From IMG/VR virus record IMGVR_UViG_3300008266_011815: 64,000 nt of DNA. The stretch is one strand, 5' to 3'. A program made the translations under genes and the position numbers. Shown here in pieces: positions 39,661 to 51,523 of this stretch; the first letter of the stretch is position 1; each line of letters starts with the position of its first letter. The notes under the pieces were generated by a model, which was given only the letters and a program-made list of their open reading frames with translations, was not told the origin of the DNA and ran no database searches. The stretch is from an uncultured virus (IMG/VR IMGVR_UViG_3300008266_011815) (Duplodnaviria; Heunggongvirae; Uroviricota; Caudoviricetes).

Positions 39661-40458
39661 ATGTACACAAAAACTTACAGAAGTATTTTTATATCAGATG
39701 TGCATCTTGGAGCGAAAGATAGTAAAGCACAGATTTTAAATAATTTTTTAAAACATAATAGCTGTGAACAACTTTACTTAGTAGGTGACATAATAGACGG
39801 ATGGAAAATAAAACAAAATAAATGGCGTTGGAAACAAAGTCATACTAATGTAGTTCGTCGAGTATTAGGTCACGCAAAAAGAGATACCAAGATAATCTAC
39901 GTCTTAGGTAATCACGACGAATTCATACGACCATTCCTTAATTACAATATTAATTTTGATATGATCACAGTGTGTAATCAATATGATCATATTGGCAAAG
40001 ACGGAAAACGTTATCTAGTAATTCACGGAGATTTATTTGATGGCATAACTCGTATAGCACCTTGGCTAACATTTTTAGGAGACAAAGCCTATGACTTCAT
40101 CTTATCAGTTAATAATAGAGTTAATTGGATCCTACATAGAATGGGTATTGGCTATTTTAGTCTTAGCCGTTTCCTTAAGCACAAGGTAAAAAAAGCTGTT
40201 GATTTTATTTTTGAATTTGAAAAAACTCTAGCAGCTTATTGTAAAAAACGAGGATATGACGGAGTAATATGCGGTCATATACACAATGCTGAAATAAAAG
40301 AGATTGATGGTGTAACATATATGAATGACGGTGATTGGGTAGAAAGCTGTACGGCTCTTGTCGAACATCATGACGGTCGTTGGGAAATTGTATTTTGGAC
40401 TAAGGATTCAGACAATGTGGATGATGATATTGATAGCAGTACACATAAACGATCCTAA
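39661..40458 (+). CDS. PlcP-like / LpxH-family metallophosphoesterase
   Basis: SDVHLG, LVGDIIDGW, GNHDE, HGD.FD, CGHIH, NDGDWVESCTAL.E. Confidence 0.85.
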   Translation: MYTKTYRSIFISDVHLGAKDSKAQILNNFLKHNSCEQLYLVGDIIDGWKIKQNKWRWKQSHTNVVRRVLGHAKRDTKIIYVLGNHDEFIRPFLNYNINFDMITVCNQYDHIGKDGKRYLVIHGDLFDGITRIAPWLTFLGDKAYDFILSVNNRVNWILHRMGIGYFSLSRFLKHKVKKAVDFIFEFEKTLAAYCKKRGYDGVICGHIHNAEIKEIDGVTYMNDGDWVESCTALVEHHDGRWEIVFWTKDSDNVDDDIDSSTHKRS

Positions 40459-40588
40459 AGATATACCCGGAAAGATCACATTACAATTCCAAACACAGCA
40501 GCAATGTGAGCAGACATTACAGTCAATGACCTATTGGTTAAAGTTTGAAAATTTTAAGGTAGAAGGAAAATGTCAAAAAATATCCTAA
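40415..40588 (+). CDS. small secreted/membrane protein
   Basis: MWMMILIAV...QCEQ...VEGKC; AAGGA RBS. Confidence 0.6.
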   Translation: MWMMILIAVHINDPKDIPGKITLQFQTQQQCEQTLQSMTYWLKFENFKVEGKCQKIS

Positions 40589-41289
40589 GTGAAAAACTCA
40601 CTATTATAATTCCTTGTAAAAATGAAGAACGATATATAGGCCAGTTGCTTGATTCATTACGACTACAAAAGGTAGGCAATACAAGAATAATTATTGCCGA
40701 TTGTTCAACTGATAGTACTAGAGATATAATAACAAACAATCGTTCATTTCTTAATGTAGAGATCATTGACGGTGGACCTGTTGCTATGGCAAGAAACAGT
40801 GCAGCTAAATTAGTTACTACACCTTACATATTGTTTATAGATGCTGATGTAATATTTTTTGACAGCTCTACAATTCGAGATGCTGTGTTTGAATTTGAAT
40901 TGGATAATTTAGACTTAATAGGTGCTAATATTAGATGCTATGAAAATGACTGGAGAGCAGAACTTAGTTTCTTCATTTTCAATCAACTTAATCACATTTT
41001 GAAATACTTTTCACCCTTTGCGGTAGGTGCTTTTATGCTTACTAGAAAAGACAAGTTTGACGAGTTTGGGGGATTTCCTGAGCAGTTCACAACATCAGAA
41101 GACTTTTTTTTATCATCAAAATACGATGTGAAAAAATTTAAAATCATTAATCACTATTATGGCCAAGATAGTCGCAGATTTAAAAAAATGGGATATTTTG
41201 GAATGGCATGGTACATGATAAAAAATTTTATCAATTTAAAAAATCCGTCATACTGGAAAAAATCAATTCATAACAAGTATTGGTCATAA
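40570..41289 (+). CDS. family 2 glycosyltransferase
   Basis: IIIPCKNEE, ADCSTD, ARN, FIDAD, SED. Confidence 0.92.
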   Translation: MSKNILSEKLTIIIPCKNEERYIGQLLDSLRLQKVGNTRIIIADCSTDSTRDIITNNRSFLNVEIIDGGPVAMARNSAAKLVTTPYILFIDADVIFFDSSTIRDAVFEFELDNLDLIGANIRCYENDWRAELSFFIFNQLNHILKYFSPFAVGAFMLTRKDKFDEFGGFPEQFTTSEDFFLSSKYDVKKFKIINHYYGQDSRRFKKMGYFGMAWYMIKNFINLKNPSYWKKSIHNKYWS

Positions 41290-41351
41290 TGTAATATTTG
41301 AGTAAAAAAATTGTAATTTGTAACACGCTTGTAATCATTTTGTGTTTAAAT
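41290..41351 (+). promoter_or_regulatory. Pho-box-like repeats upstream of pstS
   Basis: TGTAA-like units at 11-bp spacing; TGTAATCATTTTGTGTTTAAAT identical to 39633-39654. Confidence 0.72.
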
Positions 41352-41400
41352 ATTTGTGTAAGACAGGGTCGTCTTACAACACTCAAATAGGAGACACACA

Positions 41401-42426
41401 ATGCGACACTTAATCGCAACAGTTTTATTAGCAGTATCCTCCCTGGCATCAGCAGCCGATCTAACAGGAGCAGGTGCTACATTTCCATATCCAATCTATA
41501 GCAAATGGGCCGAAGCATACAAAGCCGCAACTGGTATTGGTTTAAATTATCAATCAATTGGTAGTGGCGGTGGCATCCGTCAAATCAAAGCTAAGATTGT
41601 AGACTTTGGTGCTAGTGATATGCCACTAAAACAAGATGAATTAGACAAAGAAGGTCTAATGCAATTCCCAGCAATTATTGGAGGAGTTGTACCAGTCGTC
41701 AACATCGATGGTGTTAGTGCCGGACAACTTAAACTTACCTCAGACGTTATTGCTGATATCTATATGGGCAAGATTACTAAATGGGATCATCCTAGTATCA
41801 CAGCAATTAACCCAGGAGTAAAATTACCTAACGCAAATATCTCTGTGGTACATCGCAGTGATGGTTCAGGTACAACATTTATATGGACCAACTGGTTAAG
41901 TAAGACTAATCCGGAATGGGCAGATAAAGTTAAAGATGGCACAGCAGTGAAATGGCCAGTTGGCGTAGGTGGCAAAGGTAACGAAGGTGTAAGTGCCGTA
42001 GTTCAACAACTCAAGAACAGCATTGGCTATGTGGAGTATGCCTATGCCAAGCGCAACAAGATTCCACACGCACAAGTCAAAAATCGTGACGGTAATTTTG
42101 TACAGCCTAGCGATGACACATTCAAGGCCGCAGCAGCCAACGCAGACTGGAACAGTGCTCCAGGAATGTATTTGTTACTAACAGATCAGAAAGGCAAGGA
42201 TGCTTGGCCTATTACTGGTGCCAGTTTCATTCTTATGCATAAACAACAGTCAGACGCATTAACAGGTCGTGCTGTACTTAAATTCTTTGACTGGAGTTAC
42301 AAGAACGGTAGCAAGATGAGTGAAGATTTAGAATATGTTCACTTGCCACAATCAGTTATCAAACTAGTACAAGACAACTGGAAACGGGATCTAAAAGGCC
42401 CAGACAACAATCCAATTTGGAAGTAA
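41401..42426 (+). CDS. pstS: phosphate ABC transporter substrate-binding protein
   Basis: GAGATFPYP, YQSIGSGGG, DFGASD, RSDGSGTT. Confidence 0.97.
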   Translation: MRHLIATVLLAVSSLASAADLTGAGATFPYPIYSKWAEAYKAATGIGLNYQSIGSGGGIRQIKAKIVDFGASDMPLKQDELDKEGLMQFPAIIGGVVPVVNIDGVSAGQLKLTSDVIADIYMGKITKWDHPSITAINPGVKLPNANISVVHRSDGSGTTFIWTNWLSKTNPEWADKVKDGTAVKWPVGVGGKGNEGVSAVVQQLKNSIGYVEYAYAKRNKIPHAQVKNRDGNFVQPSDDTFKAAAANADWNSAPGMYLLLTDQKGKDAWPITGASFILMHKQQSDALTGRAVLKFFDWSYKNGSKMSEDLEYVHLPQSVIKLVQDNWKRDLKGPDNNPIWK

Positions 42427-42431
42427 TCAAC

Positions 42432-42461
42432 TTGACAACCGTTGGCATTTAATGTTATAAT
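42432..42461 (+). promoter_or_regulatory. sigma70-type promoter overlapping a terminator-like hairpin
   Basis: TTGACA-N18-TATAAT with extended TG; AACCGTTGGCATT..AATGCTAACGGTT plus T run. Confidence 0.6.
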
Positions 42462-42488
42462 GCTAACGGTTTTTTATAAGGACACACA

Positions 42489-43901
42489 ATGAAAACATTT
42501 ACAAAATTAGCACTTGCCACTTCTTTGGCATTTTGCTTTACGGCGCCGGCCATGGCCGATGAATACAAAGATACACTTGATCTTTTACTGCAAAAAGGTA
42601 TTATTACTCAACAAGAGTACAATACAAAAATTGAAGCACACACTGAGCGTTTAGAGAACAAACAGTTCAATGCTGCTCGTATTGATAAAGATTTACGTGA
42701 TAACAACAATTCAAGATTTACAAAGGCTAATGATGGTTCAGTTACAGAAAACGGAATCGGACTCAAAAGCAAAGATGGCAACAATACCATCCAGCTTACA
42801 GGTCGACTACATATGGACTATCGTCAGTACTCCCCGGATTATGGTACAGGTCAAACCACAGATTCGTATCAGAACCTAGCAGAAGTTCGTCGTGCTAGAT
42901 TTGGTGTTCGTGGACAGTTTGCCAAAGACTTCAAATATCAGTTGTTGGCTAACTTTGGTAATGATGCTGGTTCAAGTTCTACTACAACCACAGCAGACGA
43001 AATGTGGGTAAACTATGCGGCTAATCCTGAAATGCAATTTCAGTTTGGTTTATTTAAAATGCCTTTCAGCTTAGAGCAATTAACTAGTTCTAATAATATT
43101 GATTTTATGGAGCGTAGTTTAATTGGTAATACTGACGGTGAGTTTATTCCTGCTAAGGAAACTGGCTTTATGTTACACGGTATTCCTAAACCTGGCTTAA
43201 CTTATGCTTTAGCATTAAGCCGCGGTCGTGCTAATAAAGACGCTACCAATGACGGATTTGACTACATCGGTCGCGTAACAACAAACGTTGCCGAACTACA
43301 AGGTAGCAAGGCCTATGTGTTACACCTAGGAGCAGCATACAGTACAGGTGATATCAAAAGTGGTGTAATACCAGCTAGCGGTAGAACTGAGGCACGAACA
43401 CAATCAGGTTGGTTCACAGGTTCTGCGTTATCAGGCAACACAACAAGAACACGTCAAGGTCTTGAAGCAGCATTTGCCTACAACGGTCTAAAGGTACAAG
43501 GTGAGCAATTCCAATTTAATTATGATCCTACTACAGGTAACGATCAGAAAATAAATGGATACTATGTTCAAGCTGTATACAACCTAACAGGTGAATCACA
43601 CGCATACAAAGATGGTACATTTGGTTGGATCAAACCAAATAATCCTACTGACAAAGGTGGACGTGGTGCTTGGCAAGTTGGTGTACGTATGAGCGAGTTT
43701 GATGCTAGTGACATCTCAGTAGCTACAGGCAAATCTAATCGTGCTACTGCTATGACATATGGCGTCACTTGGTTCGCTACAGACAACCTACGTTTTATGT
43801 TAAACTATGTAGACACAAAGTTTGATGCATTAGTTGGCAGTTCAGGTAGTCGTGTAAATGGCGAACGTGCTGTTATGTTAAGAAGTCAACTTAGTTTTTA
43901 A
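42489..43901 (+). CDS. phosphate-selective porin (OprO/OprP family)
   Basis: Signal peptide; GRLHMD, RRARFG, FKMPFSLEQLTS, FMERS; C-terminal Phe. Confidence 0.88.
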   Translation: MKTFTKLALATSLAFCFTAPAMADEYKDTLDLLLQKGIITQQEYNTKIEAHTERLENKQFNAARIDKDLRDNNNSRFTKANDGSVTENGIGLKSKDGNNTIQLTGRLHMDYRQYSPDYGTGQTTDSYQNLAEVRRARFGVRGQFAKDFKYQLLANFGNDAGSSSTTTTADEMWVNYAANPEMQFQFGLFKMPFSLEQLTSSNNIDFMERSLIGNTDGEFIPAKETGFMLHGIPKPGLTYALALSRGRANKDATNDGFDYIGRVTTNVAELQGSKAYVLHLGAAYSTGDIKSGVIPASGRTEARTQSGWFTGSALSGNTTRTRQGLEAAFAYNGLKVQGEQFQFNYDPTTGNDQKINGYYVQAVYNLTGESHAYKDGTFGWIKPNNPTDKGGRGAWQVGVRMSEFDASDISVATGKSNRATAMTYGVTWFATDNLRFMLNYVDTKFDALVGSSGSRVNGERAVMLRSQLSF

Positions 43902-43947
43902 ATCGAGCACATTTATAGAGTGCTGCGGGAACTCGTAACCCGTAACA

Positions 43948-43969
43948 AAAGGACCCATCGGGTCCTTTC
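43948..43969 (+). terminator. rho-independent terminator
   Basis: AAAGGACCC-atc-GGGTCCTTT. Confidence 0.75.
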
Positions 43970-44018
43970 TTGTTAATAAAAAATAAAGTTGCAAAAAAGC
44001 CACATTTCAGGCAGGTTC

Positions 44019-44047
44019 TTGACAAAAGATATAAATACTCATATAAT
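44019..44047 (+). promoter_or_regulatory. consensus sigma70 promoter P1 of the tRNA array, with embedded TATAAATA
   Basis: TTGACA-N17-TATAAT; TATAAATA at 44030-44037. Confidence 0.85.
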
Positions 44048-44105
44048 AGACTCATAGTTAAGTTTGTTGTTGAAATAGCAATTTTACCAAAAAGGTAAAA
44101 AGTTA

Positions 44106-44134
44106 TTGACAACAAGGGCAAATGACTATATACT
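44106..44134 (+). promoter_or_regulatory. sigma70 promoter P2 of the tRNA array
   Basis: TTGACA-N17-TATACT. Confidence 0.8.
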
Positions 44135-44182
44135 TGTGTCATGCGTTAGAGATAACGTTAATTTTAGGAAAACAGAAAGAAA

Positions 44183-44314
44183 ATGAAACTTACACTCAAT
44201 CATACAATTTATTGTATAGCCAAGCAAGGGAGCTTTATGCCCTCTTATTGGTCAGCGATTGAGAGTAATGATCGTACACCAGGCAAAGGGTCCATGGAGG
44301 ATCGTGTAGCGTAG
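44183..44314 (+). CDS. candidate attenuator leader peptide (43 aa, all 20 amino acids)
   Basis: MKLTLNHTIYCIAKQGSFMPSYWSAIESNDRTPGKGSMEDRVA*; lies between the promoters and a terminator. Confidence 0.7.
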   Translation: MKLTLNHTIYCIAKQGSFMPSYWSAIESNDRTPGKGSMEDRVA

Positions 44315-44339
44315 TAAAATACAAAACACAAACTTCAAA

Positions 44340-44377
44340 GGACCCTAGGATTAAAAACCCTGGGGTTTTTTGTTTTT
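44340..44377 (+). terminator. attenuator-type terminator before the tRNA array
   Basis: GGACCCTAGG-attaaaaac-CCTGGGGTTT plus T-rich tail; 5' arm also complementary to AGGGTCC at 44287-44293. Confidence 0.85.
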
Positions 44378-44575
44378 AGCAGTACAGTGTGTATAGGGAA
44401 CGCGACCCTGCTAGGCACTATAAACATCTAGCTATTAATGAGGGCGGCCTACCGGATGATAAGTCTATGGCGGTAACGTAGATGTGTAAAATGGTAGCGT
44501 AGTAAAGTATATTACTATTTTGGCAGGCACTAGGTAATATACTTTACTACACACATTCTAAAGAGTGTGTGATTT

Positions 44576-44664
44576 GGGTGGTGCCCCTTACGGCGGTCTG
44601 TAAAACCGTTGGCATTGTAAAGTAAGGAAGTTGCCTCGTGGAGCGTTACCATCACCACCCACCA
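44576..44664 (+). tRNA. atypical tRNA-Tyr(GTA) lacking a D-arm
   Basis: 8-bp acceptor GGGTGGTG/CACCACCC plus ACCA; loop CTGTAAA; long variable arm; T-loop AGCGTTA. Confidence 0.65.
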
Positions 44665-44670
44665 GATTAA

Positions 44671-44746
44671 GTCCCGTTCATCTAGAGGCCCAGGATACCG
44701 CCCTTTCACGGCGAACACACCGGTTCGAATCCGGTACGGGACGCCA
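44671..44746 (+). tRNA. tRNA-Glu(TTC)
   Basis: Cloverleaf, loop CTTTCAC, CCA. Confidence 0.95.
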
Positions 44747-44752
44747 AATAAT

Positions 44753-44826
44753 TCCGGTGTAGTATAATGGCAGTGCGACGGTCTCCAAAACCGTTAGTGG
44801 GGGTTCGATTCCCTCCACCGGAGCCA
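44753..44826 (+). tRNA. tRNA-Trp(CCA)
   Basis: Cloverleaf, loop CTCCAAA, CCA. Confidence 0.95.
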
Positions 44827-44832
44827 AGTATA

Positions 44833-44908
44833 GGTCTTAAAGTGTTCATGGACGCACGACGGCTTGTCACGCCGTAAGAGTGGGGATCGTTACCCCCTAA
44901 GACCGCCA
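44833..44908 (+). tRNA. tRNA-Asp(GTC)
   Basis: Loop TTGTCAC; T-loop ATCGTTA; CCA. Confidence 0.9.
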
Positions 44909-44913
44909 AGTTT

Positions 44914-44989
44914 GCAGATAATGGATAGGACGGGCATCTATTGGTGCCTAACACCGGTTGTCGCAGAGGTTCGAGTCCTCTGGTCTGCA
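44914..44989 (+). tRNA. tRNA-like element with CTA at the anticodon position (amber-suppressor-like or pseudo-tRNA)
   Basis: D stem GGAT/ATCT; TTGGT-GCCTAAC-ACCGG; T arm AGAGG-TTCGAGT-CCTCT; no encoded CCA. Confidence 0.5.
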
Positions 44990-45198
44990 TTAAGTTTAGA
45001 GGAGAACAATCATGGGGGCGTGACAGTTATGATAATGGTTGGAATTTTATTAATGTATATACACAAAAATTTACGATAAGGAGATCCTGTTATGGATAGT
45101 GACAAGAGTTGTAAGGGTGGTTTGTTAAGATACGGTTACACATACCAAAACAAGCATAAGCTTGCAGCAATTATGTGGCAACTGTACGGTGTAAGAAT

Positions 45199-45275
45199 GG
45201 GTGCGTAACTCAGTTGGTTAGAGTATCTGACTTTTAATCAGAGAGTCGTGAGTTCGAGTCTCACCGCACCTACCA
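45199..45275 (+). tRNA. tRNA-Lys(TTT)
   Basis: Cloverleaf, loop CTTTTAA, CCA. Confidence 0.95.
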
Positions 45276-45355
45276 TATAAAAACACATTCAAACACATAA
45301 TGGCGTCCGGAGCTATGGGTTACTGTTACGAGAATCCAAGAATGTGTTTTTATAT

Positions 45356-45431
45356 GGTAATGTAGCATAGTGGCTAATGCAGCACCTTCATACGGTGTTT
45401 ATCGTAGGTTCGAGTCCTACCATTACTACCA
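45356..45431 (+). tRNA. tRNA-Met(CAT), elongator-like
   Basis: Loop TTCATAC, CCA. Confidence 0.9.
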
Positions 45432-45433
45432 GT

Positions 45434-45507
45434 GCCCTTGTAGCTCAAAAGTAGAGCACTCGACTGATAATCGAAAGACGTAGGAGCGTTACCTTCCAAG
45501 GGTACCA
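45434..45507 (+). tRNA. tRNA-Ile(GAT)
   Basis: Loop CTGATAA; T-loop AGCGTTA; CCA. Confidence 0.88.
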
Positions 45508-45517
45508 TAAAGTTTAT

Positions 45518-45594
45518 TGACCAGTAGCACAGTTGGTAGTTGCGTCTGACTGTTAATCAGAATGTCGTAGGTTCGAGCCCTACCTGGTCAGCCA
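45518..45594 (+). tRNA. tRNA-Asn(GTT)
   Basis: Loop CTGTTAA, CCA. Confidence 0.95.
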
Positions 45595-45747
45595 ATACTC
45601 GCCCTTGTTGACGGCGTAGAGTAGGACAAATTGTCAACAGTCTACAGACCCCCGCTTTACTAGGTTGTGCGGTAAACAACCTAGACCGATTAAATAACAG
45701 TATGAAAGAGCTACTAAATCAAGTATCTTAAGTACATTCCTATCATT

Positions 45748-45909
45748 ATGATTTTAGCCGGATTAGGATATGGCATATTCTATTGGACGCAAAATTATAA
45801 AGATCCTTACGTCTGCGTGAACAATCATGTATTCGAACAACTTAGAATAGATTCCGACATTTATGTGTTTAAAGGCGGAACCTGTGTCGATTCTAAAGAT
45901 TTAAAATAA
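45748..45909 (+). CDS. small membrane protein (start possibly frameshifted from 45702)
   Basis: MILAGLGYGIFYWTQNYKDPYVCVNNHVFEQLRIDSDIYVFKGGTCVDSKDLK. Confidence 0.5.
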   Translation: MILAGLGYGIFYWTQNYKDPYVCVNNHVFEQLRIDSDIYVFKGGTCVDSKDLK

Positions 45910-45912
45910 TTA

Positions 45913-45988
45913 GGGCTGTGATTGAGCTGGGGTTCTTGGCTGCTTTGCAAGCAGTTATCGGTGGGTTCGATTCCCACACGGTCCACCA
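45913..45988 (+). tRNA. tRNA-Ala(TGC)
   Basis: Loop TTTGCAA; G3:U70; CCA. Confidence 0.88.
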
Positions 45989-45994
45989 TACAAT

Positions 45995-46070
45995 TGGGGA
46001 GTAGATCAATTGGTAGATCAACGGGTTTTGATCCCGCAGGTTGCAGGTTCGAGTCCTGTCTCCCTTGCCA
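45995..46070 (+). tRNA. tRNA-Gln(TTG)
   Basis: Loop TTTTGAT, CCA. Confidence 0.92.
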
Positions 46071-46072
46071 AT

Positions 46073-46148
46073 ACCGCTGTAGTGAAATAGGATATCATAC
46101 AACCCTGCGAAGGTTGAGTCTCAGGTTCAACTCCTGATGGCGGTGCCA
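46073..46148 (+). tRNA. tRNA-Arg(GCG)
   Basis: CAACC-CTGCGAA-GGTTG; CCA. Confidence 0.88.
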
Positions 46149-46154
46149 AACAAT

Positions 46155-46230
46155 GGTGTCATTAGTGTAGTGGCCTGCACCCTGCTCTGTGAAAGCAGTA
46201 GTACCGGATCGATACCGGTATGGCACCCCA
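46155..46230 (+). tRNA. tRNA-His(GTG)
   Basis: Loop CTGTGAA; G-1:C73; CCA. Confidence 0.92.
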
Positions 46231-46232
46231 AT

Positions 46233-46306
46233 GCTCTTATAGTATAAAGGTATTACACTACATTGGTAATGTAGAAACTCTGGATCGTTACCAGATAGGA
46301 GCACCA
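46233..46306 (+). tRNA. tRNA-Thr(GGT)
   Basis: Loop TTGGTAA; T-loop ATCGTTA; CCA. Confidence 0.9.
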
Positions 46307-46310
46307 ATTT

Positions 46311-46386
46311 GCTGCTTTAGCTGATGTGGTCATAGCGGCGGTCTGAAGAGCCGTTGAACGTGGTTCGATTCCACGAGGCAGCACCA
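46311..46386 (+). tRNA. tRNA-Phe(GAA)
   Basis: Loop CTGAAGA, CCA. Confidence 0.93.
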
Positions 46387-46394
46387 ACTAATAT

Positions 46395-46468
46395 GGCCTC
46401 ATATCTCAAAAGTAGAGCACTCGACTGATAATCGAAAGACGTAGTAGCGTTACCTGCTAAGGCTACCA
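46395..46468 (+). tRNA. second, degenerate tRNA-Ile(GAT)
   Basis: Central core identical to 45434..45507; different and imperfect acceptor and T stems. Confidence 0.6.
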
Positions 46469-47004
46469 GTAAAGTAAGGAAGAAATATTTTTTCTGCTTC
46501 TTCCCAAGTTATTCTTTTATCTGTGTTGATATGTTTTAATGCAAAAGAATAGCACTGTCTAAAAGTATTGCCATTGTGTACAGAATGTAGATCGTGTGCA
46601 TTAACTAAGGACACTGAATCTAAAATGCCTTGGTCTAAGATATCTAAGTCGTTAAGAGTGTAACCTCCCTCAACAGTTTCTCCTAGCGTATTAGTATAAG
46701 TCTTTATAGACTGTCCTGATTTTATTTTATACCAAATCATTTTAGCCTGTTGGCTATTGTAGATAAAATTTATTTTTACACAACCATATTCTGGACTACT
46801 GTCTCTATGTATGGTATACTGTTGATTAGGTACTGCAATTAACATTCTTGGAATGTCATAAGCGAGTCCAAGGGAACTTAACCAATTTTTAAAATTTTGA
46901 TCTATCATGTGTTCTTTAATTTCTAATTCTACATGAACCTTGATAGGTGGAAATTTGTAAGGCTTGAATTCAAATGGAAGATTAAGATAGTGATAACATT
47001 TCAT
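46450..47004 (-). CDS. cupin/2OG-Fe(II) dioxygenase-like protein
   Basis: IHRD...HSVHN...RQCYS. Confidence 0.65.
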   Translation of the reverse strand: MKCYHYLNLPFEFKPYKFPPIKVHVELEIKEHMIDQNFKNWLSSLGLAYDIPRMLIAVPNQQYTIHRDSSPEYGCVKINFIYNSQQAKMIWYKIKSGQSIKTYTNTLGETVEGGYTLNDLDILDQGILDSVSLVNAHDLHSVHNGNTFRQCYSFALKHINTDKRITWEEAEKIFLPYFTGSLSR

Positions 47005-47594
47005 AGAAGTAAACCTTTTTCTTCAAAATGTTTAACTACATCATCCCATTGATAATTTTCTAAATTGAATCTTACACTTATGCAAAATCGATATTCATGA
47101 TCATTAGTAATGGCATGAGGTAAGTCTACTCTAACTAATGTAGCTTGATCAGAAATTTCTACAGAATCAATCTTAGTTAGTTGTTCAATTGGCCATTTAA
47201 CATCGTAAACAGAAGGTGCATTTTTAGTTACATGCATTTTGCCTTCAGGTAACTCATACCAGTGCATTTGACTGTGTTTGCCGCCAATTACCCAATTAAT
47301 TGCAAAGGGTACCGACTTAATTTGATCTTGTGTACTATTAGCATCAAGATCTATATGTGCCATTTGATCAGTAGTACCAATAGGTCTATAAAAAATGATT
47401 GATTTATATGCAAGTTCTAGGCCTAGAGAATTTACATATTCTATCCAAGACTTTTTAAAAAGTTTATTCGATTCTACAGTCCAAACTCTAAAATTAGGCA
47501 GGAACCTCGGTTCTCTATAAAACCATTTATAGGACGTACTCAACGCATCTTGCGTGTTTATATTCACTCTATGCCAACTAGGTAGGGGTTTCAT
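47001..47594 (-). CDS. cupin/2OG-Fe(II) dioxygenase-like protein
   Basis: AHID...PHAI...RFCISVR. Confidence 0.65.
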   Translation of the reverse strand: MKPLPSWHRVNINTQDALSTSYKWFYREPRFLPNFRVWTVESNKLFKKSWIEYVNSLGLELAYKSIIFYRPIGTTDQMAHIDLDANSTQDQIKSVPFAINWVIGGKHSQMHWYELPEGKMHVTKNAPSVYDVKWPIEQLTKIDSVEISDQATLVRVDLPHAITNDHEYRFCISVRFNLENYQWDDVVKHFEEKGLLL

Positions 47595-47658
47595 AATGCT
47601 ACTCTAAATTTATATTTATGGGGATTAAATTACCTCATAAATACTGGAGGAGTTGATT

Positions 47659-48435
47659 ATGAAAAAATATTGGTTAAAACACGAAATACCTATTGCCGAA
47701 GAACTAATGTCCTTGGCACCAAAACTACTACAAGAATTTTTGGACTTTCATCCTGATTGGCTTACAGGCGGATTTAAAGAAGGAAGAAGCCATGATTTTG
47801 TCAATTGGAAAACTGAAGGATTAAAATATACTCATCCTTATGCAGAACCTCCAATTGTGTTTAATGGATTAGAACAACCAGATATTGTTGCTGCATTTCC
47901 AACTGCTGCGGCATTAACTGAAAAATATTTTGACGATTGTCCTAGTAGCTTATATTCAACACTGGAACCGGGCATTATTCCAAGACACACCGGGAAAGAA
48001 AATAGAGACAACGAATACCTGCGTATTCATGTTCCGCTGCATACTCCTGCAGGAGACATTTTCTTTGAATGCGAGGGAGTAGAAATAGACTGGACAGACC
48101 TTTGGGGATTTAATAATCAGTTGATACATTCTGCACACAATTATACAGGACGTAGAAGATTGATCTATATGATAGATATCAGTTATAAAAGATTAGGTCT
48201 TGAAATACAACCTAAATATAATCCTATACGCGAACTTAGGATACCTGCATTTGTAAGAGGTAAGTTACCTAAGCAGCTTCATGCACATCAGGAACTGGCC
48301 TTAAAAGCTAATTTAGGATTAAAAGAAGTGGCTTATCAAAGCCCAGTAATAGATATGAAACCAATAGAAGGTTTCGTCAGTTATAAAGAAGAAGAAGCAC
48401 TTAGAGCTCAAAAAAAGAAGGAACAAGAACAATGA
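47659..48435 (+). CDS. Asp/Asn beta-hydroxylase-like dioxygenase
   Basis: YSTLEPGIIPRHTG, LRIHVPL, HSAHN..RRLI..ID. Confidence 0.75.
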   Translation: MKKYWLKHEIPIAEELMSLAPKLLQEFLDFHPDWLTGGFKEGRSHDFVNWKTEGLKYTHPYAEPPIVFNGLEQPDIVAAFPTAAALTEKYFDDCPSSLYSTLEPGIIPRHTGKENRDNEYLRIHVPLHTPAGDIFFECEGVEIDWTDLWGFNNQLIHSAHNYTGRRRLIYMIDISYKRLGLEIQPKYNPIRELRIPAFVRGKLPKQLHAHQELALKANLGLKEVAYQSPVIDMKPIEGFVSYKEEEALRAQKKKEQEQ

Positions 48436-48510
48436 CGGCCTTTCGTTCAACGGATAGGATGCTGCGCTTCGAACGCAGAGATATGGGTTCGATTCCTGTA
48501 GGGCCGGCCA
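48436..48510 (+). tRNA. tRNA-Arg(TCG)
   Basis: CTGCG-CTTCGAA-CGCAG; CCA. Confidence 0.92.
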
Positions 48511-48514
48511 GCTT

Positions 48515-49177
48515 ATGACAAAATTAGCATTAATCACAGGCGGCACACGAGGCATCGGAGCTGCCATTGCAGACAATTTAAGTCTTGACTACAAAGTGGT
48601 CACTGTTGGTCGTAGTGCCGGCGCAACAGAACAGGGTGATTTAACTGATAGCAATTTTAGAAATTATCTTGTTGAAACGTATACTCCTGATCTGTTTATC
48701 AACAATGCTGCGGCATTGTTTTTAGACAAATACAAAATGATTCACGTCAATGGTACAGTTGCAGTAGACTTACTGTTTAAATTCTATGACAAAATGAATC
48801 AAGGACAAATTATTAATCTGTCAAGTATTAGTGCAGAAAGATTGACCGGTGTTAAAGAAGGTGAGCCAAGAACTGCCTATGCTCTGGCTAAAAAGTTTTT
48901 AAAAGACAGTAGTTTGACACTGAGCAACAGTAGAATGAAGCCAATTAAAGTTATGTGTCTAAGCCCGTCAGCAGTAGATACTGACATGGCTAGAAGTCTC
49001 ACTGAGTATAGAGTCAAAGACGAAGACTATCAAAACTACAATTGGGACTCTAGTATTTGTTGGGCAAGACCTCAAGAAATCGCTAGTATAGTTAGATGGA
49101 TGATAGAACAGCCTGAGTGGATTAATATACCAGAAATGGTAGTAGATAACCACTACAGCAAATCATTTATTTGGTAA
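48515..49177 (+). CDS. short-chain dehydrogenase/reductase
   Basis: TGGTRGIG, NNAA, YALAK. Confidence 0.9.
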   Translation: MTKLALITGGTRGIGAAIADNLSLDYKVVTVGRSAGATEQGDLTDSNFRNYLVETYTPDLFINNAAALFLDKYKMIHVNGTVAVDLLFKFYDKMNQGQIINLSSISAERLTGVKEGEPRTAYALAKKFLKDSSLTLSNSRMKPIKVMCLSPSAVDTDMARSLTEYRVKDEDYQNYNWDSSICWARPQEIASIVRWMIEQPEWINIPEMVVDNHYSKSFIW

Positions 49178-50317
49178 TTAAAGATTATAAAAATACAGTC
49201 GCTTAACTTGTTCTTGATCTTGAAAGAAAGTGTATTGACTATTTTGTTTTATCTTTTCCAACATGCCTGGTTTAAAATTTACATTGTCCCATACATAGAA
49301 AAGATACAGATCATTATCGAATGTAACACTGTGCGGTACATGACTTCCTGAAAAAACTAGGATACTAGATCTAGCAGTAATTTTAAATTCATGCGGTTGT
49401 CTTTGATCTGTGTAAGATCGTTTTAATAACGCAGGACTACTATAGTAGCCTAAAAGATTAGGATCATCATCTGGGATTGGATCCCAGAACTTATAAGTAA
49501 GTCCAGTGCCATTAAAAGTTACACGAACAGCAATTGTTAGTGTAAGTCTGTTTTCTTCCGTGACGCGATGTGTATGTACAATAAATTCATTGTCCAAACT
49601 TTCATGTCCAATTAATACAGCAGCGTGATCGCAATCTTCTATAAAAGTTTCTGCAAGAGTTTCTGCATCTCTAGTTAACTGCATGAATCTTCTGTAGATA
49701 TAAGGCTGATCATACATGGCAGTTTGCATAGCATGATCAAACGTGTACATAAGTAGCCAAGTAGGAATTTTACCTTTGTGGGTAGACAGATCATGCGGTC
49801 TGCGTACAATACTACTGGTTCTTTCTTTAAGAAAACGAGAACCAGTTAAGTCAGGGCTCTTGTCCCAAATACCATTTCCTTTGTAGTCAATCATATTACC
49901 AATAGGTATTATATGTTTGACAAACCAATCTAAATGTAAAGGTAACAAGGTCCAACAAATTATTTGATTTTTTGGCGGGTAGTAAGTATATGGAAATTTA
50001 CTGACATATTCATCATTAGATGTATATCGATTGAACTCTACATCGGCTGCAGAATGTGCATTATGAAAACTAAGAATGAGATCATCATATTTGACTCTAT
50101 TTTCAGCAGCCCATTCGTCGTACTCTGCTTCCGACCAGAATATCACCCGAAGTTCGGACTCTAAACCGTTTGGCGTCCAATGTTGCTCTATGTTAACAAT
50201 CGCGTCTGATTTGAGCAACAGCTTGTATAATTCTATAATATCTTTGATGTTATGAGGATTTTCATCAATTGTAGTTCTTTTAACTACATTGTAAACTATG
50301 TAAAGATTTGAGTTCAT
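49178..50317 (-). CDS. hypothetical protein with C-terminal cupin-like domain
   Basis: IVHTH...VPHSV. Confidence 0.55.
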   Translation of the reverse strand: MNSNLYIVYNVVKRTTIDENPHNIKDIIELYKLLLKSDAIVNIEQHWTPNGLESELRVIFWSEAEYDEWAAENRVKYDDLILSFHNAHSAADVEFNRYTSNDEYVSKFPYTYYPPKNQIICWTLLPLHLDWFVKHIIPIGNMIDYKGNGIWDKSPDLTGSRFLKERTSSIVRRPHDLSTHKGKIPTWLLMYTFDHAMQTAMYDQPYIYRRFMQLTRDAETLAETFIEDCDHAAVLIGHESLDNEFIVHTHRVTEENRLTLTIAVRVTFNGTGLTYKFWDPIPDDDPNLLGYYSSPALLKRSYTDQRQPHEFKITARSSILVFSGSHVPHSVTFDNDLYLFYVWDNVNFKPGMLEKIKQNSQYTFFQDQEQVKRLYFYNL

Positions 50318-50361
50318 TGTCAAATATTTATTGAGTTAGCAAAATCTAAATTAAAATTAGG

Positions 50362-50390
50362 TTGACCAAATTAATGTTTGATAGTATAAT
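50362..50390 (+). promoter_or_regulatory. sigma70-type promoter
   Basis: TTGACC-N17-TATAAT. Confidence 0.7.
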
Positions 50391-50415
50391 AATAGAAATA
50401 AAAAAGGAGAGCATT

Positions 50416-51015
50416 ATGCCTGCTGTGTTTTTAGTAAGCGACACGCATTTTGGACACGCTGGTGTGTGCCGATTTTTGCGTGAAGATGGAAGCAAACTTC
50501 GTCCTTGGGATGATCCTAGCGAAATGGACGAGGCTATGATCAAGCGATGGAACGAACGTGTTCGCCCAAACGACAAAGTTTATCACTTAGGTGATGTAGT
50601 GATTAATCGTAAAGCATTATCTACGTTATCTCGCTTAAACGGAGACAAAGTGTTAATCCGTGGTAACCACGATATCTTTAGGGATGACGAGTATAGAATG
50701 TACTTTCGTGAATTACGTGCATACCACGTTATGAACGGAATGATCTTAAGTCATATTCCAGTACACGAAGCAAGTTTAGGTCGGTTTGGTGTCAACATTC
50801 ACGGACACTTACACGCAGGTCGTGTTAAAAAAGCACGTGGTATAAATGCTAAAACGGGAGAAGTTTTATACAGTGACGAAATTGATACTCGTTATCATTG
50901 CGTATGTGTAGAACAAACCGACTACACACCTATCTTGTTTGAAGACGTTATCAAGCGTATTGAAGAAGAAGGTGGGACCGTTGGATTTAAAAACGGCAAC
51001 GGTCCTACTATGTAA
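50416..51015 (+). CDS. calcineurin-like metallophosphoesterase
   Basis: SDTHFGH, HLGD, GNHD, SHIP, HGHLH. Confidence 0.92.
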   Translation: MPAVFLVSDTHFGHAGVCRFLREDGSKLRPWDDPSEMDEAMIKRWNERVRPNDKVYHLGDVVINRKALSTLSRLNGDKVLIRGNHDIFRDDEYRMYFRELRAYHVMNGMILSHIPVHEASLGRFGVNIHGHLHAGRVKKARGINAKTGEVLYSDEIDTRYHCVCVEQTDYTPILFEDVIKRIEEEGGTVGFKNGNGPTM

Positions 51016-51025
51016 GGAGAACATT

Positions 51026-51202
51026 ATGAAACCAACATTGTTTGAAAATCTATTTACTAAAGAAGTTGTAATTTGTGATAACCCTAAAGACATTCAAGCC
51101 ATTGACGGTGTCGAATATCTATTAGTACATAGAGAATATAACCAAAGAAAGTTTCTTATTCGTAGAGACAGTTTGAAAAAAATAGATAAAATAAAAGCTT
51201 GA
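51026..51202 (+). CDS. hypothetical protein
   Basis: AAGGAG RBS; MKPTLFENLF... Confidence 0.65.
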   Translation: MKPTLFENLFTKEVVICDNPKDIQAIDGVEYLLVHREYNQRKFLIRRDSLKKIDKIKA

Positions 51203-51258
51203 CAGTCTGTTGGTAAGACTATATAATAGAAGAATAGTTTAATTGTTCATTAAAAATT
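51199..51258 (+). promoter_or_regulatory. sigma70 promoter plus boxA-like element for the second tRNA block
   Basis: TTGACA-N17-TATAAT (51199-51227); TGTTCATTAAAAATT (51244-51258). Confidence 0.75.
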
Positions 51259-51269
51259 AAGTTTCTTCT

Positions 51270-51351
51270 GCGCATGTGGTGGAATGGTAGACACGCTAGT
51301 CTTAGGAACTAGTCTTTCGGGGTGGGGGTTCGAGTCCCTCCATGCGCACCA
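51270..51351 (+). tRNA. tRNA-Leu(TAG)
   Basis: Loop CTTAGGA; variable arm; CCA. Confidence 0.93.
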
Positions 51352-51440
51352 TATAGAAACACATTAACGGTACCCTCCGAGTAAAGATTGGGCTAAGTTA
51401 ATGTGACGTAATCTGAAGCCAGGTTAGTGTGTTCCTATAT

Positions 51441-51516
51441 GGGAGGTTAGCTCAGTTGGTAGAGCGTTGCCCTTACAAGGCAAATGTCGCCGGTTCGAAC
51501 CCGTCACCTCCTACCA
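51441..51516 (+). tRNA. tRNA-Val(TAC)
   Basis: Loop CTTACAA, CCA. Confidence 0.95.
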
Positions 51517-51523
51517 AATATGT

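What the first reader, a model, noticed from the sequence alone, without database searches (positions are those of the whole stretch)
44019..44377. Candidate all-amino-acid attenuator controlling the phage tRNA array
Seen: two consensus sigma70 promoters (44019, 44106) precede an unannotated 43-codon ORF (44183-44314, MKLTLNHTIYCIAKQGSFMPSYWSAIESNDRTPGKGSMEDRVA). It contains all 20 amino acids and 30 different codons; its five Ser residues use five different codons. A terminator (44340-44377) follows, ~200 nt before the first tRNA. Three mutually exclusive helices can be drawn. 1:2 is GCCCT..TGGT..GCGATT (44239-44260) with GATCGT..ACCA..AGGGT (44270-44291). 2:3 (antiterminator) is AGGGTCC-A-TGGAG (44287-44299) with CTTCA-AA-GGACCCT (44333-44346), enclosing the stop codon. 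3:4 is the terminator. Known: this is the trpL/hisL attenuator layout, but those leaders carry runs of one amino acid. Inference: a codon-diverse leader would sense shortage or cleavage of many different host tRNAs. A stalled ribosome would free segment 2 and allow read-through into an array supplying tRNAs for all 20 amino acids, giving an inducible answer to starvation or anticodon-nuclease defence. Caveat: stalls in roughly the first 13 codons may not reach segment 1.
Basis: partly seen in the sequence, partly recalled or inferred. Interest (0 to 1): 0.93.

Follow-up and report, generated by a model that had tools for sequence, protein, structure and literature searches.

The report
All-amino-acid leader switch before phage tRNAs
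A short conserved reading frame that holds every one of the 20 amino acids sits, together with an RNA on/off switch, in front of a giant phage's tRNA genes, and probably turns those genes up whenever translation runs short of any tRNA.

Summary
Comparison with relatives supports its central idea, with revisions.

- **Family.** The 43-codon ORF at 44183-44314 belongs to a family found only in uncultured freshwater jumbo-phage contigs. It has 54 unique versions found by profile search, 53 of them analysed, plus 11 more divergent ones.
- **Context.** It lies behind tandem near-consensus sigma-70 promoters, at the head of a same-strand tRNA array.
- **RNA switch.** A long hairpin (window 44287-44346) encloses the stop codon. 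It shares its CCC(Y) with the intrinsic terminator (44343-44365 plus a U-tract). Both helices covary. The hairpin is predicted in 53 of 53 nascent leaders.
- **1:2 helix.**
- **All 20 amino acids.** 44 of 53 homologs and 7 of 11 divergent ones hold all 20, against about 1.6% by chance. Neighbouring 47-60-aa ORFs score 0 of 32. Cys occurs exactly once in 42 of 53, at 19 different offsets from the invariant Trp.
- **Codon diversity in the window.** The five-Ser-five-codon detail is not beyond chance.
- **Best reading (confidence about 0.6).** This is a two-state, ribosome-dependent attenuator. Read-through is the default. A ribosome that arrives promptly at the stop codon melts the antiterminator and causes termination. 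A delay at any codon therefore lets transcription run into the first tRNA cluster.

Nothing was tested at the bench.

The parts
44019..44047 (+). Promoter P1 (TTGACA-17-TATAAT)
   Evidence: 12/12 match. Identical in relative G002/G003. 50 of 53 relatives have two or more sites scoring >=10/12 within 260 nt upstream of the ATG, clustered near -60..-100 and -160..-200.
44106..44134 (+). Promoter P2 (TTGACA-17-TATACT)
   Evidence: 11/12 match. Conserved position in relatives. RNA contigs begin upstream of its expected start point, at 44087-44107.
44183..44314 (+). Leader ORF: 43 codons, all 20 amino acids, stop TAG followed by TAA
   Evidence: Homologous open frame in 89 loci, 54 unique versions. 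ATG and stop position conserved. All 20 amino acids in 44 of 53.
44287..44299 (+). Antiterminator 5' arm (AGGGTCC, A, TGGAG), inside the last 9 codons
   Evidence: Pairs with 44333-44346. 85.4% of cells paired; 55 double-change cells against 26.6 in shuffles (0 of 500).
44304..44329 (+). Apical hairpin of the antiterminator, holding the stop codon
   Evidence: Window fold. Covarying GTGTAA..TACAC / GAGTTAA..TAACTC variants are visible in A3. This explains the shifting C-terminal residues of the peptide.
44333..44346 (+). Antiterminator 3' arm (CTTCA, AA, GGACCCT). Its CCCT is also the start of the terminator stem.
   Evidence: Column 272 pairs with 193 (GC 23, AU 19) and also with 289 in the terminator (CG 30, UG 18, UA 5).
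44343..44377 (+). Intrinsic terminator: stem CCCTAGG/CCTGGGG, 9-nt loop, U-tract 44366-44377
   Evidence: -19.4 kcal/mol. Consensus of 11 pairs, 4 with compensatory changes. Mean -17.3 kcal/mol, z = -5.6 over 53 sequences.
44378..44566 (+). Conserved structured RNA of unknown role between the terminator and the first tRNA
   Evidence: The 17-mer at 44442 is exact in 86 viral stretches. Consensus helices, covarying hairpins. No Rfam match. RNA contigs run into it.
44567..44664 (+). tRNA-Tyr(GTA)-like gene with aberrant D and T arms and an encoded CCA
   Evidence: Called by ARAGORN only at -ps80. Missed by Rfam. Covariation in the variable arm and acceptor stem against G002. Relatives often start the array with a standard tRNA-Tyr.
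44671..46465 (+). First tRNA cluster, the likely regulated genes: Glu, Trp, Asp, Lys, Met, Ile, Asn, Ala, Gln, Arg, His, Thr, Phe and one further Rfam hit
   Evidence: Reverse-strand ORFs begin at 46450.

Best explanation
This is a ribosome-mediated transcription attenuator with two RNA states, placed between tandem strong host-type promoters and the first tRNA cluster of a jumbo phage.

**Default state (read-through).** As the leader RNA emerges, AGGGTCC..TGGAG (44287-99) pairs with CTTCA..GGACCCT (44333-46) around a small apical hairpin that holds the stop codon. This long hairpin is made before the terminator's 3' arm and is more stable than the terminator. It uses the CCCT that the terminator stem needs, so without a ribosome RNA polymerase reads through.

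**Termination.** A ribosome that translates the 43-codon leader without delay reaches the last codons and the stop while polymerase is making 44340-44377. It occupies or melts the 5' arm and the apical hairpin. GGACCCT is then free to form the terminator, and transcription stops.

**What is sensed.** Any delay at the roughly 30 upstream codons leaves the antiterminator intact and sends polymerase on into the conserved RNA element and the tRNA genes. The leader has been selected to contain every amino acid at least once. A shortage of any one aminoacyl-tRNA therefore raises phage tRNA synthesis, and a restored supply shuts it down again. This is a feedback loop on translation capacity. The shortage could come from starvation, codon-usage mismatch, host shutoff or cleavage by anticodon nucleases.

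**Shown by comparison:** the ORF, both helices, their mutual exclusion, the geometry, the all-20 composition and the position before tRNA arrays.

**Inferred:** that the ORF is translated, the direction of the switch, and what is sensed.
For: **Family and context**
- jackhmmer from the window peptide finds an open homologous frame in 89 fetched loci, 54 unique versions. 53 were analysed; one, cut by its locus end, was dropped.
- tRNA genes on the same strand start 270-1024 nt downstream in 46 of 53. Of the other 7, 5 have under 450 nt of downstream sequence. None lies upstream in 51 of 53.
- 50 of 53 have two or more promoter-like sites scoring >=10/12 upstream.

**Switch**
- Antiterminator: 12 pairs, 85.4% of 622 cells paired, against 25.6-65.4% when the partner is slid. 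There are 55 double-change cells against 26.6 +/- 4.6 in shuffles (0 of 500). Pair 193-272 is GC 23 / AU 19.
- Terminator: 11 pairs, 4 of them with compensatory changes.
- Mean energy of the antiterminator is -23.5 kcal/mol (z = -5.6). The terminator is -17.3 (z = -5.6).
- The antiterminator core is in the minimum-energy fold of the leader cut before the terminator's 3' arm in 53 of 53. In the full leader it appears in 39 of 53, and the terminator in 14.
- 11 more divergent loci keep the same architecture with other sequences, for example CUCGGGGU/ACCCUGAG with CCCUGAGA/UCUCAGGG.

**Geometry**
- The stop codon lies 20-29 nt after the GGG of the 5' arm. GGACCC starts 19-31 nt after the ORF end.

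**All 20 amino acids**
- 44 of 53 have all 20; the rest have 18-19. 7 of 11 divergent ORFs have all 20, as does the copy in L212.
- Column-shuffled alignments give 11.8 +/- 2.7, with a maximum of 21 in 2000.
- With the 9 conserved columns held fixed and the rest resampled, 5.8 of 53 are expected. For one representative of each of 20 clusters at 60% identity, 14 are observed against 2.3 expected (0 of 200,000 simulations).
- Cys occurs exactly once in 42 of 53 and is absent in 7. It sits at 19 different offsets from the invariant Trp.
- Controls: downstream ORF-B-like ORFs of 47-60 aa score 0 of 32, with 14-19 amino acids. Background ORFs of 40-55 aa score 6 of 1,157.
- The zone upstream of the 5' arm alone holds >=19 amino acids in 37 of 53.

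**Not an ordinary protein gene**
- Column entropy shows no third-position excess: 0.51/0.37/0.58 in conserved columns and 1.36/1.24/1.25 in variable ones.
- Synonymous sites are fixed, often on codons that are rare in the phage's own genes: GCC 14%, CCC 8%, GCG 6%, GAG 17%.

**Expression**
- RNA contigs with 0-1 mismatches from four metatranscriptome runs of four studies cover 44107-44481, 44087-44494, 44179-44488 and 44106-44359.
- Three of them bridge the terminator.
Against: - There is no experiment. Translation of the ORF is not shown.
- The SD-like AGGA starts 17 nt before the ATG, and -23 to -15 in all but three sites in relatives. Where this phage's long ORFs have one, it starts at -15 to -5.
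- Two peptide blocks (FMPSYWS, NDRTPE) are well conserved. The model does not need this and I cannot explain it. A functional peptide, a nascent-chain effect or another RNA contact remains possible.
A third state is therefore not excluded.
- In the window itself the full-length fold depends on where the RNA is cut. The antiterminator wins (from 44141) and the terminator (from the ATG).
- Amino acids in the last ~13 codons would not be sensed. Glu is the only copy there in 34 of 53 under my footprint assumption.
- Between the terminator and the tRNAs lie a ~190-nt conserved RNA and, in 32 relatives, a further small ORF. The regulated product may therefore not be only tRNAs.
- Other tRNA clusters of the same phage have their own promoters.
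- The excess of distinct codons (51 of 53, mean z = 1.7) was judged against the window's codon usage only, and the window itself shows none.
- Sequences are related, so the shuffle tests overstate independence.
- Contigs cannot show RNA ends or levels, and DNA carry-over in RNA libraries cannot be excluded.
Confidence: 0.6

Rival explanations
1. The RNA switch is the same, but the all-20 composition has no sensing role. The leader simply reports whether ribosomes follow polymerase at all: ribosome availability, host shutoff, or the coupling of transcription and translation.
For: The two-state design responds to any delay, including slow initiation. The weakly placed SD-like motif would make initiation limiting. 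Conserved codons include several that are rare in the phage, which slows translation in general.
Against: It does not explain why 44 of 53 and 7 of 11 versions keep all 20 amino acids. It does not explain why Cys is kept as a single copy at 19 different offsets. Neighbouring ORFs never have all 20 (0 of 32).
Confidence: 0.12
2. This is the first reader's trp-type layout with three alternative helices. Without translation, 1:2 forms and the terminator follows. Only a ribosome stalled over segment 1 (roughly codons 14-30) frees segment 2 for antitermination.
For: The helix can be drawn: -22.1 kcal/mol for 44225-44300 in isolation. 84.1% of 775 cells are paired, against 28.5-47.2% when slid. 5 pairs have double changes against 1.0 in shuffles (0 of 500). 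The two arms coincide with the two best-conserved blocks, whose synonymous sites are fixed.
Against: In folds of the nascent leader (ATG to the end of segment 2), the GGG:CCC pairs form in 0 of 53. Their mean pair probability is 0.001, and that of TGGT:ACCA is 0.06. The segment is no more stable than shuffles (z = -0.85), and GGG pairs with an upstream partner in 0 of 53. Only 7 cells show double changes. The amino acids needed for the full set lie largely outside codons 14-30.
Confidence: 0.12
3. This is an ordinary small protein gene (43-54 aa) expressed early from strong promoters, with its own terminator. The long hairpin only stabilises or shapes the 3' end of the mRNA.
For: The frame, the start and two peptide blocks are conserved. 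Gene callers have listed it as a hypothetical protein in 6 database clusters. RNA covering it is found in metatranscriptomes.
Against: There is no third-position excess in variability, and synonymous sites are fixed. The C-terminal residues change as the hairpin covaries: EDRVA, EIMS, EMLV, RTVV, EGWDG. Two covarying helices compete for the same CCCY. The all-20 composition with relocating Cys has no known reason in a protein. There is no Pfam domain on record for any of the 6 clusters.
Confidence: 0.1
4. This is an untranslated RNA switch that binds a ligand or a tRNA directly, in the manner of a T-box. The open frame is a by-product of sequence conservation.
For: Conservation is at the nucleotide level, including synonymous sites. 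TGG is invariant and ACACCA nearly so. These recall the UGGN-NCCA contact of T-box leaders; that resemblance is recalled, not tested.
Against: The frame is open from a conserved ATG to a stop at a fixed place in all 53 analysed and all 11 divergent versions, despite many insertions and deletions. There is no Rfam T-box or riboswitch match in the window or in 10 relatives. It does not explain the all-20 composition.
Confidence: 0.06

Closest known systems
Leader-peptide transcription attenuators of amino-acid operons (trpL, hisL, pheL, thrL, ilvL of enterobacteria). Established knowledge; not re-read here.
   Same: A short ORF lies in the 5' leader. An intrinsic terminator and an antiterminator helix compete for one strand. 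The position of the ribosome decides between them, and stalling for lack of charged tRNA gives read-through.
   Different: There is no run of regulatory codons; instead every amino acid occurs at least once. No supported 1:2 protector helix exists, so the untranslated state should read through. The stop codon lies in the tip of the antiterminator. The leader is three times as long as trpL. The genes behind it are tRNA genes of a phage, not biosynthetic genes.
toiL uORF of the E. coli topAI-yjhQ transcript (PMC12121999; only the search listing and the start of the abstract were seen)
   Same: A regulatory uORF reports general translation stress through ribosome stalling, rather than the supply of one amino acid.
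   Different: As I recall, and did not read here, toiL acts on Rho-dependent termination and on translation of the next gene, and responds to antibiotics. Here the switch is an intrinsic terminator, and the selected feature is amino-acid completeness.
T-box riboswitches (Rfam RF00230)
   Same: A leader RNA with terminator and antiterminator alternatives couples gene expression to the state of the tRNA pool.
   Different: A T-box binds one specific uncharged tRNA directly and needs no translation. No T-box match was found here, and the element has a conserved ORF.
Tandem P1/P2 promoters and feedback control of bacterial rRNA and tRNA operons (recalled textbook knowledge)
   Same: Two strong sigma-70 promoters about 90 nt apart drive stable-RNA genes. 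Output is tied to translation capacity.
   Different: Bacterial control acts at initiation (ppGpp/DksA, NTP sensing). Here a leader ORF and a terminator act after initiation.
Phage tRNA genes as an answer to tRNA-targeting defences (PMC10264068 and PMC12409363; only the listings and the starts of the abstracts were seen)
   Same: They give a reason why a phage would need tRNA output to rise when host tRNAs are lost.
   Different: In what I saw, those papers concern the tRNAs themselves, not a regulatory element in front of them.

Membership tests
Ribosome-mediated (leader-peptide) transcription attenuator | Short ORF in the transcribed leader between the promoter and the regulated genes | tested here: met
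   ORF 44183-44314 lies behind P1/P2. It is conserved in 54 unique versions. tRNAs lie downstream in 46 of 53 and promoters upstream in 51 of 53.
Ribosome-mediated (leader-peptide) transcription attenuator | Intrinsic terminator between the leader ORF and the regulated genes | tested here: met
   Stem 44343-44365 plus a U-tract, -19.4 kcal/mol. 11 consensus pairs, 4 compensatory. z = -5.6 over 53 sequences.
Ribosome-mediated (leader-peptide) transcription attenuator | Antiterminator helix mutually exclusive with the terminator and overlapped by the ORF | tested here: met
   44287-99 pairs with 44333-46 and shares CCCT with the terminator. Covariation is above shuffles (0 of 500) and above slid controls. 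It is in the fold of 53 of 53 nascent leaders. The same design appears in 11 divergent loci.
Ribosome-mediated (leader-peptide) transcription attenuator | Protector (1:2) helix that sequesters the antiterminator strand when the leader is not translated | tested here: not met
   Predicted in 0 of 53, with pair probability 0.001 and z = -0.85. The pairing potential is conserved (84.1%), but only 7 cells show double changes. This feature defines the trp type, not the class as a whole.
Ribosome-mediated (leader-peptide) transcription attenuator | Regulatory codons: a run or enrichment of codons for the amino acid that is sensed | tested here: not met
   No runs. Instead 20 different amino acids in 43 codons, conserved in 44 of 53.
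Ribosome-mediated (leader-peptide) transcription attenuator | Translation of the leader, and stall-dependent read-through | not testable with these tools
   Only indirect evidence: a conserved ATG and frame, and RNA contigs across the terminator.
T-box riboswitch | Match to the T-box covariance model (stem I, specifier loop, T-box sequence) | tested here: not met
   No hit at E <= 1 in window 40000-58000, nor at E <= 0.5 in 10 relatives.
Any Rfam family (cis-regulatory leader or sRNA) | Covariance-model match over 44050-44566 | tested here: not met
   Searches match only tRNAs, plus weak chance hits elsewhere.

The most novel reading that the evidence does not exclude
The leader is a universal aminoacyl-tRNA sampler. 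It is a regulatory ORF whose selected property is not its peptide sequence but the completeness of its composition: each of the 20 amino acids at least once, with rare ones such as Cys kept as a single copy that is free to move. A ribosome can then finish it on time only if every tRNA species is in supply. The phage uses it as a homeostat, and as an alarm against tRNA-cleaving defences, for its own tRNA array. This would be the first attenuator known to sense the whole tRNA pool rather than one amino acid.
Probability: 0.5. Interest if true: 0.93.

Novelty: new variant of a known kind. Interest (0 to 1): 0.88.

Why it matters
**Regulation of phage tRNA genes.** Why large phages carry near-complete tRNA sets, and how they control them, has been debated for decades. 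I found no regulatory element in front of a phage tRNA array in print. The five full-text searches were made, and only listings and the starts of abstracts were seen.

**What it would mean if the reading holds.**
- It gives a simple mechanism by which a phage measures translation capacity and answers with tRNA synthesis.
- That makes the codon-compensation and counter-defence ideas directly testable with one reporter construct.
- It extends leader-peptide attenuation from sensing one amino acid to sensing all of them.
- It offers a compact part of about 200 nt that reports shortage of any aminoacyl-tRNA.
- It shows that selection can act on the composition of an ORF rather than on its sequence. 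Gene finders and conservation tests do not look for this kind of constraint.

Tried and rejected
**Searches for relatives that found little or nothing**
- GenBank phages: no match by blastn with window 43900-44700, by tblastn with the peptide, or by blastn with relative L197.
- The window's own assembly is not held. The nearest record, G001, ends at window 44012, before the element.
- An exact 32-mer of the ORF start found nothing in viral contigs.
- Of 80 loci fetched through the neighbouring porin gene, only two (one phage lineage) carry the leader within 6 kb.
- A peptide-pattern search found only the five loci already known.
- The diverse peptide alignment A4 was too variable for pattern searches of bacterial genomes and metagenomes.

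**Leads set aside**
- High-GC loci L090, L116, L128, L133 and L152 are chance matches to short motifs and were dropped.
- The filter wrongly listed 34 loci as lacking the ORF, because the extracted stretch was too short for loci that carry an extra downstream ORF. Only 11 are truly divergent, and they were examined.
- Excess of distinct codons given the amino acids (51 of 53, mean z = 1.7): I do not rely on it. The background was the window's codon usage only, and the window and its closest relative show no excess.
- Two further all-20 small ORFs lie in the window's tRNA region (45748-45909, 53088-53246). The first is a conserved small hydrophobic protein whose relatives lack the property. The second has one partial match, 20 residues at 75% identity in L084. 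Both were set aside as chance.
- An internal start at ATG 44237 behind AAGGGAG was considered and dropped. It is GTG in one lineage, and the upstream frame and ATG are conserved.

**Metatranscriptome contigs**
- They give no cover at 43819-44052 or 44521-44637, and they stop at 44481-44494 in three studies.
- Contigs cannot show RNA ends, so this is only a weak hint of processing near the long hairpin at 44499-44550.
Full report
**1. What is at the site**

The window reads as part of a jumbo phage.
- It carries ribonucleotide reductase, DnaK, PstS, a phosphate porin and a peptidyl-prolyl isomerase.
- It has 24 tRNA genes by ARAGORN, all on the + strand between 44671 and 54599.
- Its nearest complete relative is a 364,554-base viral contig (G002).

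- The promoter-like sites at 44019-44047 (12 of 12) and 44106-44134 (11 of 12) are real.
- The ORF at 44183-44314 gives the stated peptide. It has 20 amino acids, 30 codons and five different Ser codons.
- The terminator is a hairpin, CCCTAGG 44343-49 with CCTGGGG 44359-65, followed by a U-tract up to 44377. Its energy is -19.4 kcal/mol.
- The consensus scan did not list the terminator because its loop is 9 nt.

The first standard tRNA (Glu) starts 294 nt after the terminator. The "~200 nt" fits only a tRNA-Tyr-like gene at 44567-44664, which ARAGORN calls only at a relaxed threshold and Rfam misses.

**2. Relatives**

GenBank phages hold nothing similar. IMG/VR does.
- A 17-mer from the ORF found three lineages.
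- A 17-mer from the region behind the terminator (44442) found 86 stretches.
- A 15-mer from the ORF found 28 stretches.
- An iterated profile search, started from the window peptide over all stop-to-stop frames of the fetched loci, found a homologous open frame in 89 loci, 54 of them unique.
- One version was cut by its locus end, so 53 were analysed (DNA alignment A3).
- Eleven further low-GC loci with the 17-mer have an ORF of 36-50 aa at the same place that the profile does not recognise.
- One more copy lies on a 6.2-kb contig binned with a Polynucleobacter MAG.

The context is constant.
- tRNA genes on the same strand begin 270-1024 nt downstream in 46 of 53. Of the other 7, 5 have under 450 nt of downstream sequence.
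- No tRNA lies upstream in 51 of 53.
- Two or more promoter-like sites scoring >=10 of 12 lie within 260 nt upstream of the ATG in 50 of 53, at two preferred distances.

**3. The RNA switch**

RNAalifold on A3 gives the terminator: 11 pairs, 4 of them with compensatory changes.

- 85.4% of 622 cells are paired, against 25.6-65.4% when the partner is slid.
- 55 cells have changes on both sides, against 26.6 +/- 4.6 in shuffles (0 of 500).
- The outermost pair alternates G-C (23) and A-U (19).
- That same 3' column also pairs in the terminator (C-G 30, U-G 18, U-A 5). One nucleotide therefore serves two conserved helices, which is what a switch requires.

Per-sequence folding agrees.
- The antiterminator averages -23.5 kcal/mol (z = -5.6) and the terminator -17.3 (z = -5.6).
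- With the terminator's 3' arm left off, the antiterminator core is in the minimum-energy fold in 53 of 53.
- In the full leader it wins in 39 of 53, and the terminator in 14.

The 11 divergent loci have the same design built from different sequences.

The tip of the long hairpin is a small covarying hairpin that holds the stop codon. This explains why the last residues of the peptide differ between lineages as if unconstrained.

The geometry is kept. The stop is 20-29 nt after the GGG of the 5' arm, and GGACCC starts 19-31 nt after the ORF end.

**4. The 1:2 helix**

Evidence for it:
- It can be drawn. Folded in isolation it has -22.1 kcal/mol in the window.
- 84.1% of cells pair across the family, and 5 pairs show a double change.

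Evidence against it:
- Only 7 cells carry such changes.
- The segment is no more stable than shuffles, z = -0.85.
- In folds of the nascent leader the GGG:CCC pairs form in 0 of 53, with a probability of 0.001.

I therefore read the element as two-state. I keep the three-state version as a rival.

**5. The all-20 composition**

Expectation by chance:
- A random 43-codon ORF with this phage's codon usage holds all 20 amino acids in 1.6% of trials.
- Real 43-aa windows of its long ORFs do so in 210 of 13,049 cases.
- ATG ORFs of 40-55 aa in 940 kb of related phage DNA do so in 6 of 1,157 cases, the leader included.

Observed in the family:
- 44 of 53 hold all 20 and the rest hold 18-19.
- 7 of 11 divergent ORFs do so, and so does the copy in L212.

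Controls:
- Shuffling residues within alignment columns gives 11.8 +/- 2.7, with a maximum of 21 in 2000 trials.
- With the nine conserved columns (M, A, G, W, D, R, T, P, E) held fixed and the rest resampled from the family's own variable positions, 5.8 of 53 are expected.
- For one representative of each of 20 clusters at 60% identity, 14 are observed against 2.3 expected. No trial in 200,000 reached 14.
- The ORFs of 47-60 aa that follow the terminator in many relatives never hold all 20: 0 of 32, with 14-19 amino acids.

The clearest single signal is Cys.
- It makes up 1.1% of residues in the phage's genes.
- It is present exactly once in 42 of 53 leaders, absent in 7 and multiple in 4.
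- It sits at 19 different offsets from the invariant Trp.
- Loss at one place has therefore repeatedly gone with gain at another.

His and Tyr are also mostly single copies (45 and 42 of 53).

The part of the ORF upstream of the antiterminator arm alone holds at least 19 amino acids in 37 of 53. The one usually missing is Glu, which lies just past my assumed footprint limit.

These tests treat related sequences as partly independent and are not a substitute for a tree-aware model.

**6. Is it a protein gene?**

The frame, the ATG and the stop position are kept through many insertions and deletions. This argues for translation.

The substitution pattern, however, is not that of a protein under purifying selection.
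- Column entropy is 0.51/0.37/0.58 for codon positions 1/2/3 in conserved columns, and 1.36/1.24/1.25 in variable ones.
- Conserved residues use a single codon throughout: His CAT 36 of 36, Arg AGA 25 of 25, Ile ATA 24 of 24, Thr ACA 43 of 43, Asp GAT 51 of 51.
- Several conserved codons are rare in the phage's own genes: CCC 8%, GCG 6%, GCC 14%, GAG 17%.

The constraint therefore lies on nucleotides or codons, not only on the peptide.

I cannot say why the two blocks FMPSYWS and NDRTPE are kept. The SD-like motif lies unusually far from the ATG. Both points are open.

**7. Mechanism proposed**

- Without a ribosome, the antiterminator forms first and polymerase reads through.
- A ribosome that reaches the last codons and the stop in step with polymerase covers roughly 44297-44327. 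The figures are textbook footprint sizes, not measured here.
- This prevents the long hairpin and leaves GGACCCT free for the terminator.
- Delay at any of the roughly 30 earlier codons keeps the antiterminator. Since every amino acid is represented, lack of any aminoacyl-tRNA raises read-through into the conserved RNA element and the first tRNA cluster (44567-46465).
- Abundant tRNAs restore termination.

What is shown: conservation, covariation, mutual exclusion, geometry, composition and context.

What is inferred: translation, the direction of the switch, and what is sensed. Starvation, codon mismatch, host shutoff and anticodon nucleases cannot be told apart here.

The switch cannot control the whole array. 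Reverse-strand ORFs start at 46450, and a later cluster has its own 12-of-12 promoter at 51199.

**8. Expression**

Twenty public runs from 17 studies, nearly all labelled freshwater or lake water (two labelled fungus metagenome), hold the stretch or part of it, six of them RNA libraries. In four metatranscriptome runs from four studies, contigs with 0-1 mismatches cover:
- 44107-44481
- 44087-44494
- 44179-44488
- 44106-44359, plus 44330-44443

Three of these contigs bridge the terminator. The flanks at 43819-44052 and 44521-44637 have no cover.

This fits an abundant leader RNA that partly reads through. But contigs show neither ends nor levels, and DNA carry-over cannot be excluded.

**9. 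Comparison with what is known**

- It works like the leader-peptide attenuators of amino-acid operons. It meets their core features: leader ORF, terminator, and a competing antiterminator overlapped by the ORF.
- It lacks the run of regulatory codons and a supported protector helix, and it regulates tRNA genes.
- It is not a T-box and matches no Rfam family.
- In spirit it is close to uORFs that sense general translation stress, such as toiL (PMC12121999; only the listing and the start of the abstract were seen).
- Five full-text searches showed no description of a regulatory leader before a phage tRNA array, or of a leader ORF selected for all 20 amino acids. I saw only listings and the starts of abstracts, and subscription journals are not covered.

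**10. Verdict**

- I rate it a new variant of a known kind of regulation.
- Interest is high, because the composition signal is strong and unexpected and the model can be tested with one reporter construct.

Noticed in passing
window 44378-44566: A conserved structured RNA lies between the terminator and the first tRNA. It has a small hairpin GGG-AACGCGA-CCC, a helix around the exact 17-mer at 44442, a long near-perfect hairpin at 44499-44550 that covaries with relative G002, and an ACACAC/GTGTGT hairpin. The 17-mer is exact in 86 viral stretches. There is no Rfam match. RNA contigs of three studies stop at 44481-44494, just before the long hairpin.
   Followed up: partly
window 44567-44664: A tRNA-Tyr(GTA)-like gene with a long variable arm and an encoded CCA, but aberrant D and T arms. 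ARAGORN calls it only at a relaxed threshold and Rfam misses it. The variable arm and acceptor stem covary with relative G002. Many relatives start their array with a standard tRNA-Tyr. Without it the window's array covers 19 amino acids.
   Followed up: partly
relatives, e.g. L135:1277-1439; absent from the window: A family of small ORFs of 47-60 aa (M.FEDFRKQ...LIEEKF.RA...) sits between the leader terminator and the conserved RNA element in 32 relatives. It may be co-regulated by the switch. It never holds all 20 amino acids.
   Followed up: partly
window 41401-43901: Phage-borne pstS (PBP_like_2) and a phosphate-selective porin O/P lie just upstream. A 12/12 promoter with an extended -10 at 42432-42461 stands before the porin gene, and a terminator follows at 43948-43968. 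The porin has 93 relatives in viral contigs at 70-88% identity.
   Followed up: partly
window 51199-51227 and 50362-50390: Further consensus promoters (12/12 and 11/12) lie inside the tRNA region, the first just before tRNA-Leu at 51270. The array is therefore several transcription units, and only the first has the leader.
   Followed up: no
L212 (contig of a Polynucleobacter MAG), 1330-1476: A copy of the leader (48 aa, all 20 amino acids) with promoter and terminator lies on a 6.2-kb contig of 40% GC binned with a freshwater Polynucleobacter genome. This is a weak hint to the host, or a mis-binned phage contig.
   Followed up: partly
window 45748-45909 and 53088-53246: Two more small ORFs with all 20 amino acids lie inside the tRNA region. 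The first is a conserved small hydrophobic protein whose relatives lack the property. The second has only one partial match in the fetched loci (20 residues at 75% identity, L084). Both are taken as chance.
   Followed up: yes
window 54616-55182; 47653-48435 and 57342-57959: An HNH endonuclease gene and two Asp/Asn beta-hydroxylase-like genes are interspersed with the tRNA clusters. A parvulin-type isomerase is at 52682-52978.
   Followed up: no
window 44216-44395 against L082/L083: Against relative G002/G003 this block is about 98% identical, while the flanks are about 75% identical and the first 11 codons of the ORF are heavily substituted. This suggests strong constraint on, or recent exchange of, the switch segment.
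   Followed up: partly
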